Source: a virus. From it: 64,000 nucleotides of DNA. The stretch lies in IMG/VR virus record IMGVR_UViG_3300021256_000065, one strand, 5' to 3'. The notes below the pieces were generated by a model. That model was not told the DNA's origin and made no database searches. It worked only from the letters and a program-made list of their open reading frames with translations. Both the position numbers and the translations under genes were made by a program. Positions 58,179 through 59,978 of the stretch are shown here, in pieces (position 1 is the first letter of the stretch; every line of letters begins with the position of its first letter).

Positions 58179-59978
58179 ATGAAATATGAATTAATTAATA
58201 AACCAAATAAAAATTTTTCAGCAGTTCAACAAATCCTATATAACAGAGGAATTACAGAAGATGAAATTTTACATTATGTAAATTTATCTGACTAGGATAT
58301 TAATTCTCCATTATTATTAGGCGAACAAAATTTAAAGCAAGGATTAATATTAATTTTAAACACTATAAAACAAGATGATAATGCAGTAATTATTGTAGAT
58401 TGCGATTGTGATGGATATACATCTGCCGCATTATTAATTAATTATTTATATAGATTATTTCCAACATGGGTAATTGGTAATTTAGATTGGATTATGCATG
58501 ATAGTAAACAACATGGGTTATCAGATTGCTATCAAAATATCGTTGAAGGAAATTTTATAACTAATAAACAATATTCATTGGTTATATGTCCAGATTCAAG
58601 TAGTAATGATTATAAATATCATAAATTTTTATATGATAATGGAATCCAAACATTGGTATTAGATCACCATTTAGCAGATCATATTAGTGATTATGCTGTG
58701 ATTATTAATAATCAACTTTCTAATTATCCTAATAAGGAGTTATCTGGAGTTGGTGTAGTTTGGCAATTTTGTCAATATATAGATTCAATATTAGAAGTTA
58801 ATTATGCAAATGATTTTCTTGATTTAGTGGCACTTGGAAATTGTGGAGATATGATGTCTTTACGTTCTTTTGAAACGCGCTATCTTATTACAAAAGGATT
58901 CAAAAAATAGAATATAAAAAATCCTTTTATTGATTATATGCTTGATAAAAATTCATTTCCATTATCAAAAGCAGATTATATATCTTCTGATCCATAGATG
59001 GCATGTACTTCTATGGGCGCCGCTTTCTTTATTGTTCCTTTTGTTAATGCTATTACACGGAGCGGGACTCAACAAGAGAAAGAATTACTTTTTAATTCCA
59101 TGCTAAATCATAAAGCTTTTGAAGAAGTTCTTTCAAACAAACGAGGACATAAATTAGGAGAAAAAGAAAAATTAATTTTACAGGCAGTTAGAACAGTTAC
59201 AAATGTTAAAAATAGACAAACAAGAGCAGAAGATGCAGGTTTGGCTATGTTAGAAAAAATGATTGAAACTAATCACATGCTTGACCATAAAATTCTTTTA
59301 TTCTTATTAGAACCAGGCCAAATTGATTCTGAAATTCGTGGTTTAATTGCAAATAAATTCATGGCAAAATATCAAAGACCATGTTGCTTATTAACACGGA
59401 CCAATAGAAATGGAAAAGAAACTTATGAAGGTTCAATGAGGGGATATACAAAAACTGGCATTGATAGTTTTAAAGAAGTGCTTGAACAATGTCCTGGTAT
59501 TACCTATGTAGAAGGTCATGATAATGCGGCGGGCGTTGGTATTGAGGCAAACCATATCGAAGACTTTCTTTACCATATTGACCAGCTTTTAGAAGATGTT
59601 TCTGTCGAGCCTATTTATAGAGTAGATTATGATTTTAAAGAAATTGATAACAATAATCAACTCATTTTAGAAATTGCAAGTATGAATGATTATTGGGGTC
59701 AAGATATTGATAGAGCATATGTAAATATTAATTTTAAAATTACAAGTTCTAATTTTCAAATTATGAAAAGTAATACTTTAAAATTTAATCTTCCGAATGG
59801 GTTATCTATTATTAAATTTAATGGAACTGATGAGGAAATTACTCAATTTACAACTACAGGATATTTAGAATTAAATGCAATCTGTAAATGCAATGCCAAT
59901 GAATGGAATGGTCGCGTTTATCCGCAGCTGTTAATGGAAGATTATGAAATTATAGATTCCTCTAAATATTTCTTTTAA
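58179..59978 (+). CDS. DHH/DHHA1 family phosphoesterase (RecJ / nanoRNase-like) with 3 in-frame TAG.
   Basis: DHH motifs VDCDCDGYTSAA and LDHH. DHHA1 EGHDNAAGVG. TAG at 58293-58295, 58908-58910 and 58995-58997 joins ORF-track fragments 58494..58910 and 58998..59978 to an upstream 5' segment that starts at 58179. Confidence 0.6.

What the first reader, a model, noticed from the sequence alone, without database searches (positions are those of the whole stretch)
58179..59978. DHH/DHHA1 phosphoesterase reconstructed across three TAG codons
Three ORF-track or unlisted fragments join in one frame through TAG at 58293, 58908 and 58995. Together they give a ~600-aa DHH (DxDxDG, LDHH) plus DHHA1 (GHDNAAG) protein. 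Family members are RecJ exonucleases, nanoRNases and cyclic-dinucleotide phosphodiesterases. In a phage such an enzyme could process DNA ends. More speculatively it could degrade nucleotide second messengers of host defence.
Basis: partly seen in the sequence, partly recalled or inferred. Interest (0 to 1): 0.5.

Follow-up and report, generated by a model that had tools for sequence, protein, structure and literature searches.

The report
Phage RecJ gene; amber likely glutamate
The three "stop" codons lie inside an intact phage RecJ-type DNA exonuclease gene and are read as an amino acid; comparative evidence says that in this phage lineage TAG stands for glutamate, not the glutamine reported for other amber-recoded phages.

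Summary
Observation confirmed. Window 58179-59978 (+) is one 599-codon frame with in-frame TAG at 58293, 58908 and 58995 and no TAA/TGA before the TAA stop. It is a full-length RecJ-type 5'-3' ssDNA exonuclease (DHH + DHHA1 + OB fold; PHROG 2484, the family of SPbeta YorK). It sits in an SPbeta-like replication/recombination module and is not a nanoRNase or cyclic-nucleotide phosphodiesterase. Orthologues in related phages hold 0-12 in-frame TAGs at varying positions and never TAA/TGA, so TAG is a sense codon.

The unexpected result concerns its meaning. Four independent tests place TAG at glutamate positions. In 12 structural gene families scored against TAG-free relatives, E beats Q by 217 nats over 173 columns. 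At columns where those relatives agree at 80% or more, the residue is E in 27 of 37 and Q in 0. Two sister recoded lineages, scored the same way, give Gln, and all control codons are recovered. No tRNA(CUA) was found in about 93% of the ~134-kb genome.

The RecJ gene itself is ordinary. The TAG-to-Glu reading appears new for phages and needs proteomic confirmation.

The parts
58179..59978 (+). RecJ-like (YorK-type) ssDNA exonuclease gene, 599 codons + TAA
58293..58295 (+). In-frame TAG, codon 39. The same site is TAG in 21 of 29 orthologues. Diverse homologues have E/D/S/N here.
58908..58910 (+). In-frame TAG, codon 244. Orthologues: TAG 13, E 11, D 2, N 2, C 1, no Q.
58995..58997 (+). In-frame TAG, codon 273, in a variable low-confidence loop. 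Orthologues: S 8, D 7, TAG 4, N 4, A 3, E 1, Q 1.
58386..58838 (+). DHH domain (aa 70-220), with D74/D76/D78, D139, D162-H163-H164 and D224 all invariant among orthologues
59322..59594 (+). DHHA1 domain (aa 382-472), with G446-H447-D-N-A-A-G452
59646..59942 (+). RecJ OB-fold domain (aa 490-588)
   Evidence: 25.7 bits, cut-off 27
58111..58139 (+). Sigma-70/A-type promoter TTGATA-17-TATAAT with TG extension. It carries the TTGTTATAATAT motif shared by the TAG-free early genes.
58098..58125 (+). Terminator-like hairpin + T run that ends the upstream PARG-like gene
58163..58171 (+). Ribosome-binding site AAAGGGAAG
   Evidence: read directly
59979..60045 (+). G+C-rich element just after the stop, conserved at the same place in relatives; function unknown (possibly a terminator)
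51515..52555 (+). Sak4-like ssDNA annealing protein (same module)
53167..54711 (+). DnaB-like helicase, TAG-free in 28 orthologues
60386..61567 (+). Dda/RecD-like helicase, candidate unwinding partner for end resection
63200..64000 (+). N-terminus of Pol III alpha (YorL-like), cut by the window end

Best explanation
The locus is an intact gene for a bacterial-type RecJ 5'-3' single-strand DNA exonuclease, the homologue of SPbeta YorK. It belongs to a ~134-kb uncultivated, low-G+C, amber-recoded tailed phage with an SPbeta-like replication/recombination module. Shown: the frame, the domains, the conserved metal-binding motifs, the synteny, and the fact that TAG is a sense codon across the lineage. 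Inferred: the enzyme trims 5' strands, probably behind the neighbouring Dda/RecD-like helicase, to give 3' tails for the Sak4-like annealing protein during recombination-dependent replication or concatemer processing. The gene is transcribed from the same host-type promoter class as the TAG-free early genes. Full-length protein cannot be made until TAG is decoded, because the first TAG is codon 39. Its TAG density matches that of late, low-abundance virion genes. The three TAGs are most likely read as glutamate, not glutamine. How they are decoded is unknown, since no tRNA(CUA) was found. My component confidences are: RecJ identity about 0.9, TAG is sense about 0.97, TAG = Glu about 0.8, resection role about 0.5.
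For: RecJ identity:
- PHROG 2484 matches the full length, E = 4e-132.
- Pfam finds DHH at 48 bits and DHHA1 at 30 bits.
- phmmer against PDB finds S. aureus and T. thermophilus RecJ.
- An AF2 model of an 85%-identical orthologue has pLDDT 89.7. Its best Foldseek hits are all bacterial RecJ: 8y30 at E = 2e-30 and TM 0.71, then 5f56 and 2zxo.
- The catalytic Asp/His residues are invariant in 28 sequences.
- The module is yorF-yorL-like.

TAG is sense:
- 28 orthologous genes hold 0-12 in-frame TAGs at 40 different columns and never TAA/TGA.
- The tape measure gene has 85 TAGs.

TAG = Glu:
- (i) RecJ profile test. An HMM of 119 diverse homologues gives summed log-odds over 36 TAG columns of E 25.4, K 13.8 and Q 13.5. 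All 16 control codons recover their own residue. At profile node 280, E is 91% conserved; the lineage has TAG in 17 of 29 sequences, E in the other 12 and never Q.
- (ii) Eighteen replication-module families, 122 TAG columns: E 0.40, Q 0.13.
- (iii) Window late genes against L049: E 39, Q 6 of 94.
- (iv) Twelve structural families against 11 TAG-free relatives: E-Q = +216.6 nats (bootstrap 161-270) for the window's lineage, against -70 and -43.5 for two sister recoded lineages. At conserved columns the residue is E in 27 of 37 and Q in 0.
- The near-identical genome tested alone gives E 20, Q 2 of 37.

Translational gating:
- Promoter at 58111-58139.
- TAG per 1000 codons: RecJ 9.4; DnaB 0; Pol III 0.1; primase 0.2; baseplate genes 21-26.
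Against: - There is no biochemical or proteomic evidence for either the enzyme activity or the inserted amino acid.
- No tRNA(CUA) was found in the window, in the near-identical contigs or in relatives, covering about 93% of the genome. The decoding agent is therefore missing.
- A minority of TAG columns align with Q or K (Q 0.07-0.16). Mixed or ambiguous decoding is not excluded.
- The RecJ_OB Pfam score (25.7) is just under the cut-off (27).
- The structure model is of an orthologue, not the window protein itself.
- The protein lacks the C-terminal SSB-binding domain found in D. radiodurans and T. thermophilus RecJ.
- Alignment columns are treated as independent.
Confidence: 0.75

Rival explanations
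1. Canonical code 15. The gene is the same RecJ-like exonuclease, but TAG is read as glutamine, as in crAss-like, Lak and phAss-1 phages. The excess of Glu at TAG columns would then come from GAG-to-TAG substitutions that made tolerated E-to-Q changes.
For: - All published amber-recoded phages are assigned Gln. Borges et al. state that only TAG-to-Gln and TGA-to-Trp were seen. phAss-1 carries tRNA-Sup-CTA predicted as Gln.
- Crisci et al. explained TAG aligned with E in Lak terminases in just this way.
- Some TAG columns here do align with Q: RecJ columns 17, 381, 437 and 469.
Against: - Under TAG = Gln the synonymous CAG/CAA-to-TAG route should dominate. Instead Q is 0.07-0.16 and E 0.37-0.50 at TAG columns.
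- None of 37 conserved reference columns is Q, while 27 are E.
- TAG-majority RecJ columns 39, 244 and 300 contain no Q at all.
- The same pipeline, references and gene families do return Q for two sister recoded lineages and for CAG/CAA controls.
Confidence: 0.13
2. Ambiguous or mixed decoding. A suppressor tRNA is charged with Glu by a non-discriminating GluRS and only partly amidated by GatCAB, so TAG gives a Glu/Gln mixture. Or different sub-lineages differ.
For: The Q and K shares at TAG columns are somewhat higher than at GAG columns (Q 0.13 against 0.04; 0.07 against under 0.05). The indirect Gln-tRNA pathway of most Bacillota is established knowledge and makes this biochemically plausible.
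Against: At conserved columns the TAG profile is almost the same as the GAG profile. The extra Q/K can be explained by single-step mutational neighbours (CAG, AAG).
Confidence: 0.07
3. A decaying pseudogene: the TAGs are real stops and only fragments, or nothing, are made.
For: Under the standard code the gene is cut into four pieces. GenBank annotates the phAss-1 homologue as three hypothetical proteins.
Against: - No TAA, TGA or frameshift occurs in 29 orthologues, while TAG positions vary.
- Catalytic residues are invariant.
- Essential virion genes carry far more TAGs.
Confidence: 0.01
4. A DHH/DHHA1 phosphodiesterase or nanoRNase that degrades pAp, nanoRNA, c-di-AMP or defence cyclic oligonucleotides.
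For: It shares the DHH/DHHA1 catalytic core. An anti-defence-looking PARG-like gene lies immediately upstream.
Against: - The architecture is RecJ-specific: a long linker helix plus an OB fold that closes the ssDNA hole.
- Structural matches to NrnA, GdpP and TM1595 are far weaker (E = 1e-9 to 1e-5, TM about 0.3) than to RecJ.
- It occupies a conserved position in a replication module.
Confidence: 0.04

Closest known systems
SPbeta YorK / PHROG 2484 'RecJ-like ssDNA exonuclease' of large Bacillota phages (SPbeta-like, Geobacillus E3, Enterococcus EF1)
   Same: The full-length profile matches (E = 4e-132) and tblastn identity is 31-35% over 99% of the length. The neighbourhood is the same: YorF-like, AAA_24/Sak4-like, YorH, DnaB, primase, RecJ, Pol III alpha.
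   Different: Those phages use the standard code, whereas here the gene carries in-frame TAG. A PARG-like gene and a Dda-like helicase flank it. I found no experimental work on YorK itself in the library.
Bacterial RecJ (S. aureus 8y30, D. radiodurans 5f56, T. thermophilus 2zxo/1ir6)
   Same: It has the DHH and DHHA1 domains, a long connecting helix and an OB fold, and the metal-binding Asp/His motifs are present. TM is 0.61-0.71 over about 590-620 alignment columns.
   Different: Sequence identity is only 15-19%. The protein is shorter, at 599 aa against 650-757, and has no C-terminal domain IV. Activity has not been tested.
Amber-recoded ('code 15') phages: crAss-like, Lak, Garnet/Topaz, phAss-1 ('Caudoviricetes code 15 clade')
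   Same: In-frame TAG occurs in essential genes and is concentrated in late genes. Early replication genes are largely TAG-free. The hosts presumably use the standard code.
   Different: In those phages TAG aligns with Gln and a tRNA(CUA) is often present. Here TAG aligns with Glu, and no tRNA(CUA) was seen in about 93% of the genome.
Eukaryotic nuclear codes 30 (peritrich ciliates) and 31 (Blastocrithidia), in which TAA/TAG encode Glu (my own knowledge of the NCBI code tables)
   Same: An amber codon is reassigned to glutamate.
   Different: Those are eukaryotic nuclear genomes in which TAA is reassigned as well. Here only TAG is reassigned, TAA and TGA still terminate genes, and the genome is a phage.

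Membership tests
Bacterial-type RecJ exonuclease (DHH superfamily) | DHH domain with motifs I-IV (DxDxD, D, DHH, D) that bind two metal ions | tested here: met
   Pfam DHH 48.1 bits (cut-off 28.1). D74/D76/D78, D139, D162-H163-H164 and D224 are invariant in 28 sequences.
Bacterial-type RecJ exonuclease (DHH superfamily) | DHHA1 domain with the G-H-x-x-A-A-G motif | tested here: met
   Pfam DHHA1 30.3 bits (cut-off 25.9). GHDNAAG is at 59514-59534, with G446, H447, A450 and G452 invariant.
Bacterial-type RecJ exonuclease (DHH superfamily) | OB-fold domain after DHHA1, and a long helix linking the two catalytic domains | tested here: met
   Pfam RecJ_OB scores 25.7 bits, just under the cut-off of 27. 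However, phmmer aligns residues 373-590 to S. aureus RecJ 343-558. The AF2 model has helix 332-364 and a beta-rich domain at 479-595. Foldseek aligns 597 columns to 8y30. The model is of an 85%-identical orthologue.
Bacterial-type RecJ exonuclease (DHH superfamily) | Processive 5'-3' exonuclease activity on ssDNA | not testable with these tools
   Needs purified protein.
Bacterial-type RecJ exonuclease (DHH superfamily) | C-terminal SSB-interacting domain (domain IV of D. radiodurans / T. thermophilus RecJ) | tested here: not met
   The protein ends right after the OB domain at residue 599, while the PDB RecJ chains are 650-757 aa. This domain is not universal in the family, so I do not treat its absence as excluding membership.
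PHROG 2484 / SPbeta YorK | Full-length profile match and position in the yorF-yorL replication module | tested here: met
NrnA / GdpP / Pde2-type DHH-DHHA1 phosphodiesterases | Two-domain core of about 310-340 aa without an OB fold, closest in fold to NrnA/GdpP | tested here: not met
   An OB domain is present. Foldseek gives E = 1e-9 to 1e-5 and TM about 0.3 for 8a8k, 5o1u and 5xt3, against 2e-30 and 0.71 for RecJ.
Code-15 (TAG to Gln) recoded phages | In-frame TAG in conserved genes, with TAA/TGA kept as stops | tested here: met
Code-15 (TAG to Gln) recoded phages | TAG positions align with Gln in standard-code homologues | tested here: not met
   E is favoured over Q in four data sets. Sister lineages do meet this feature in the same test.
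Code-15 (TAG to Gln) recoded phages | Phage-encoded suppressor tRNA with a CUA anticodon (present in only about 35-40% of recoded phages) | tested here: inconclusive
   None was found in the window or in about 93% of the genome (ARAGORN and Rfam). About 9 kb was not seen.
Code-15 (TAG to Gln) recoded phages | Recoded codon enriched in late or lytic genes and avoided in early genes | tested here: met
   RecJ and a GIY-YIG gene are the exceptions inside the replication module.

The most novel reading that the evidence does not exclude
This phage lineage uses a genetic code not described for any phage or bacterium: TAG = glutamate, with TAA and TGA still acting as stops. Sister lineages of the same phage family use TAG = glutamine. 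The amber codon would therefore have been captured at least twice, for two different amino acids, within one family. No CUA-anticodon tRNA is visible in about 93% of the genome. A plausible route is a tRNA-Glu-like suppressor charged by the host GluRS in a Bacillota host that lacks GlnRS, so that Glu is the default outcome unless GatCAB amidates it.
Probability: 0.72. Interest if true: 0.85.

Novelty: new variant of a known kind. Interest (0 to 1): 0.7.

Why it matters
The RecJ gene alone adds one more member to a known phage family. If TAG means Glu here, three things follow.

1. Current pipelines (code 15 in Prodigal-gv, geNomad, IMG/VR and the protein databases used here, which print Q at these sites) mistranslate every recoded protein of this abundant group. 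The error falls at functionally conserved, charged positions.
2. Amber reassignment in phages would not be tied to GlnRS promiscuity, as has been proposed. It could follow the host's aminoacylation pathway instead, which makes a clear and testable prediction about host range.
3. One family with both TAG = Gln and TAG = Glu lineages is a natural system for studying how a stop codon is captured.

For RecJ itself, its TAG load sets it apart from the TAG-free replisome genes. That suggests translational delay of a nuclease that could harm early replication.

Tried and rejected
- **DNA similarity to GenBank phages.** Megablast of 2 x 25 kb of the window found no match. A distant search with the gene found only a 97-nt match to Geobacillus E3.
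- **Database homologues as evidence for the residue.** The closest database proteins (P0001-P0120) show Q at TAG sites. I rejected this as evidence because the database itself translated TAG as Q: L001 DNA has TAG where P0002 has Q.
- **Hunt for the suppressor tRNA.**
  - I ran ARAGORN and Rfam on the window, on 220 loci, on the near-identical 133,873-bp IMG/VR contig (walked) and on an ENA contig to the left of the window. No tRNA(CUA) was found.
  - ARAGORN's intron mode gave only spurious calls that overlap coding sequence, for example 'tRNA-Stop(tta)' in L122/L151.
  - The scan with the tail-fibre protein found nothing.
  - The metagenome scan and the search with an early protein returned only short contigs.
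  - About 9 kb stays unseen.
- **Host identification.** The genome-collection scan gave one weak hit to a Bacilli MAG, so the host remains unidentified.
- **Primase TAGs.** The three TAGs in the stop-to-stop ORF 55716-56912 lie upstream of the real start. The family is essentially TAG-free.
- **Downstream G+C-rich element.** Its fold is not significant (z = -0.99).
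Full report
**1. The observation.** Window 58179-59978 (+) translates as one frame of 599 codons ending in TAA. The only interruptions are TAG at 58293, 58908 and 58995, which are codons 39, 244 and 273. Under the standard code the gene breaks into pieces of 38, 138 (from the first ATG) and 326 aa, plus an unlisted 28-aa piece. TAA+TGA make up about 5-6.5% of codons per frame in this 30.9% G+C window. A run of 600 codons free of both is therefore not chance; by my arithmetic the probability is about 1e-14 or less. ATG 58179 is preceded by AAAGGGAAG, and orthologues start with the same MKYELIN.

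**2. What the protein is.** With the TAGs filled in, PHROG 2484 ('RecJ-like ssDNA exonuclease') matches residues 1-595 to profile positions 1-562 of 564 at E = 4e-132. Pfam finds three domains:
- DHH, residues 70-220, 48 bits
- DHHA1, residues 382-472, 30 bits
- RecJ_OB, residues 490-588, 25.7 bits against a cut-off of 27

phmmer against PDB sequences finds S. aureus RecJ (8y30, E = 3e-19, in two segments that include the OB region) and T. thermophilus RecJ. I therefore modelled P0008, an 85%-identical 599-aa orthologue, and obtained pLDDT 89.7 and pTM 0.86. Its top PDB matches are all bacterial RecJ: 8y30 at E = 2e-30 and TM 0.71 over 597 columns, then 5f56, 2zxo and 1ir6. Archaeal RecJ/Cdc45 follows. 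NrnA, GdpP and TM1595-type phosphodiesterases reach only E = 1e-9 to 1e-5 and TM about 0.3. The metal ligands D74, D76, D78, D139, D162-H163-H164 and D224, and the DHHA1 residues G446, H447, A450 and G452 of the GHDNAAG motif, are invariant in 28 sequences. The protein stops after the OB fold and lacks the C-terminal domain of the D. radiodurans and T. thermophilus enzymes.

**3. Context.** tblastn finds the family in 214 GenBank phages of Bacillota. The best matches are SPbeta-like yorK and Geobacillus E3, at 31-35% identity over 99% of the length. The order of the neighbouring genes in the window is as follows:
- YorF-like protein (50479)
- Sak4-like annealing protein (51515)
- YorH-like protein (52652)
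- DnaB (53167)
- small ATPase
- primase (from about 55815)
- a membrane protein
- a microbial-type PARG (57309-58109)
- RecJ
- Dda/RecD-like helicase (60386)
- Pol III alpha (63200 onwards)

This is the SPbeta yorF-yorL arrangement. The minus-strand block 3-27423 holds tail genes, including a 3121-codon tape measure gene with 85 TAGs and a 1695-codon tail protein with 24. The window is 96-99% identical to parts of IMG/VR contig IMGVR_UViG_3300021399_000007, which is 133,873 bp. No GenBank phage is close at the DNA level. RecJ has its own promoter, TTGATA-17-TATAAT with a TG extension, at 58111-58139. This sits just after a terminator-like hairpin. The promoter contains TTGTTATAATAT, a motif found 11 times on the + strand between 28 and 62 kb, upstream of genes (13 matches against 3.4 expected).

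**4. TAG is a sense codon.** Twenty-eight orthologous RecJ genes from IMG/VR and ENA contigs contain 0-12 in-frame TAGs spread over 40 alignment columns, and none contains TAA or TGA. This excludes a pseudogene. Across the lineage, TAG per 1000 codons varies sharply between genes:

| Gene | TAG per 1000 codons |
|---|---|
| RecJ (32 of 34 genes carry TAG) | 9.4 |
| a GIY-YIG gene | 32 |
| baseplate genes | 21-26 |
| DnaB | 0 |
| Pol III alpha | 0.1 |
| primase | 0.2 |
| Dda-like helicase | 0.1 |
| capsid-like and sheath-like genes | about 1 |

RecJ is thus coded like a late, low-abundance gene even though it has an early-type promoter. This fits the published idea that recoding delays translation. 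The timing itself is inferred, not shown.

**5. What TAG encodes.** The closest database proteins print Q at TAG sites only because the database translated them that way. I therefore tested the question directly, in five ways.
- (a) **RecJ orthologue columns.** At the 40 RecJ columns where some orthologue has TAG, the other orthologues have E 43%, Q 16% and K 13%. The TAG-majority columns 39, 244 and 300 contain no Q at all. The commonest aligned codon is GAA.
- (b) **Profile test on RecJ.** I ran a Codetta-style test. An HMM was built from 119 diverse RecJ-like representatives at 32-53% identity. Summed log-odds over 36 TAG match columns were E 25.4, K 13.8, Q 13.5 and D 8.8. All 16 control codons recovered their own residue; for example CAG gave Q 23.9 against E 13.1, and GAG gave E 25.9 against Q 13.5. 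At profile node 280 (window residue E300) Glu is 91% conserved in the family. In the lineage that site is TAG in 17 of 29 sequences, E in the other 12 and never Q.
- (c) **Replication-module families and late genes.** Eighteen replication-module families with 122 TAG columns gave E 0.40 and Q 0.13, against GAG giving E 0.61 and CAG giving Q 0.55. The window's late genes compared with a 52-57%-identical relative (L049) gave E 39, K 10, D 9 and Q 6 of 94, while CAG gave Q 60 of 87.
- (d) **Structural families against TAG-free relatives.** I aligned twelve structural gene families from 68 loci of the same phage family. Eleven loci have no in-frame TAG and served as standard-code references.
  - For the window's lineage (173 TAG columns) E is best, and E minus Q is +216.6 nats (bootstrap 161-270).
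  - For two other recoded lineages Q is best, with E minus Q at -70 and -43.5.
  - GAG, CAG and AAG controls are correct in all three groups.
  - Where the references agree at 80% or more, the window's lineage has E at 27 of 37 TAG columns, D at 4 and Q at 0. The sister lineages have Q at 3 of 10 and 6 of 10, and E at 0.
- (e) **The near-identical genome alone (L124).** It gives E 20, K 4 and Q 2 of 37.

If TAG meant Gln, the synonymous CAG/CAA-to-TAG route should make Q the dominant partner, and that is what the sister lineages show. The published alternative is GAG-to-TAG substitution producing E-to-Q changes, proposed for a minority of Lak terminase sites. It cannot easily explain a complete absence of conserved-Gln sites.

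**6. How TAG is decoded is unresolved.** ARAGORN and Rfam find no tRNA at all in the window. They find no tRNA(CUA) in any of about 220 loci. I walked the near-identical contig from 100 kb round through 0 to 79.8 kb (relatives fill 30-40 kb). I also examined about 11 kb to the left of the window on an ENA contig that carries the identical tail-fibre protein. About 9 kb, or 7%, remains unseen, assuming the genomes are collinear. Some relatives carry tRNA-Leu(CAA), tRNA-Cys, varied tRNA-Lys(UUU) genes and odd 96-98-nt tRNA-like genes, but none carries a suppressor. From established knowledge, most Bacillota lack GlnRS and make Gln-tRNA by GluRS followed by GatCAB. A CUA suppressor that GatCAB does not recognise would then insert Glu. 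This is a rationale, not a result. The host was not identified.

**7. Comparison with what is known, and novelty.** The gene is a new member of a known phage family (YorK / PHROG 2484), and amber recoding in phages is known. The held literature reports only TAG-to-Gln and TGA-to-Trp in phages, including the 136-kb phAss-1 group, whose RecJ homologue is annotated as three fragments. Five full-text searches found no report of a natural phage TAG-to-Glu code. The library is incomplete, so this is absence of evidence only. I therefore class the whole finding as a new variant of a known kind.

**8. Verdict.** The gene alone would merit about 0.25 interest. The well-controlled evidence that its TAGs, and those of the whole lineage, stand for glutamate raises the score to about 0.7, pending proteomic confirmation.

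Noticed in passing
window 57309-58109 (+): The gene just upstream of RecJ encodes a microbial-type poly(ADP-ribose) glycohydrolase (Pfam PF10021, E = 1e-25). It is TAG-free and may counter ADP-ribosylating defence systems. It has no PHROG match.
   Followed up: partly
window 28124-36666 (+): A cluster that looks like tRNA repair: NinI-like phosphatase (28124), Thg1-like tRNA-His guanylyltransferase (29853), metallophosphoesterase (34305) and RNA ligase (35392). Several relatives also carry differing tRNA-Lys(UUU) genes (L204, L206, L213, L215). This would fit a counter-measure against anticodon nucleases of the PrrC type.
   Followed up: partly
window 30747-33257 (+): An 830-aa protein with a major-vault-protein 'shoulder' domain (Pfam PF11978, E = 7e-23) and a long C-terminal coiled coil. 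It has no PHROG match.
   Followed up: no
window 28075-62594, e.g. 36718, 50429, 52609, 58130, 60074: The extended -10 promoter motif TTGTTATAATAT occurs 13 times with at most 1 mismatch, against 3.4 expected. Eleven copies lie on the + strand between 28 and 62 kb, upstream of genes. None lies in front of the minus-strand tail genes.
   Followed up: partly
window 59979-60045: A short G+C-rich stretch (GGCTCGGCACGCAGGCAGCCGTCCGCAGG...) in a 31% G+C genome, right after the RecJ stop. It is conserved at the same place in L035, L034, L014, L005, L001 and L033. The predicted fold is not significant.
   Followed up: partly
L089, L090, L093 and L109-L112 (IMG/VR relatives): Sister lineages of the same phage family are also amber-recoded, but their TAG columns align with Gln. 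Eleven other relatives have no in-frame TAG. The family seems to hold three coding states.
   Followed up: yes
L146 and L148, 890-1493 (minus strand): Next to a tRNA-Leu(CAA), these relatives have a 96-98-nt tRNA-like gene with a 6-bp anticodon stem and an 8-nt loop (ARAGORN calls a 4-base anticodon; Rfam tRNA score is 40 bits). Two further tRNA-like stretches were not called by either tool.
   Followed up: partly
window 47955-48872 (+) and 39607-40404 (+); L001 2553-4690: Homing-endonuclease-type genes lie in the replication region: a GIY-YIG gene with 8 TAGs (32 TAG per 1000 codons across orthologues) and an HNH gene with 3 TAGs. In relative L001 the AAA_24/Sak4-like gene is split by a LAGLIDADG gene, which suggests an intron or intein.
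   Followed up: no
window 18061-27423 (-) and 12710-17794 (-): The tape measure gene (3121 codons) holds 85 TAGs, and a tail protein with an S74-like C-terminal chaperone region holds 24. These are the richest targets for proteomic reading of TAG.
   Followed up: partly
L224 12871-21186 (left of the window start): Beyond the window's left edge lie an Amidase_2 + Glucosaminidase endolysin (690 aa) and, on the other strand, a DUF2828/DUF7788 protein (503 aa) and a DUF5048 protein. The tail-fibre protein cut by the window start is 938 aa and carries a SASA (sialate O-acetylesterase-like) domain.
   Followed up: no
L002 12202-13773 (GenBank OQ749652, phage phAss-1): The phAss-1 RecJ homologue (32% identical) is deposited as three separate 'hypothetical protein' CDSs because of in-frame TAG.
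   Followed up: partly
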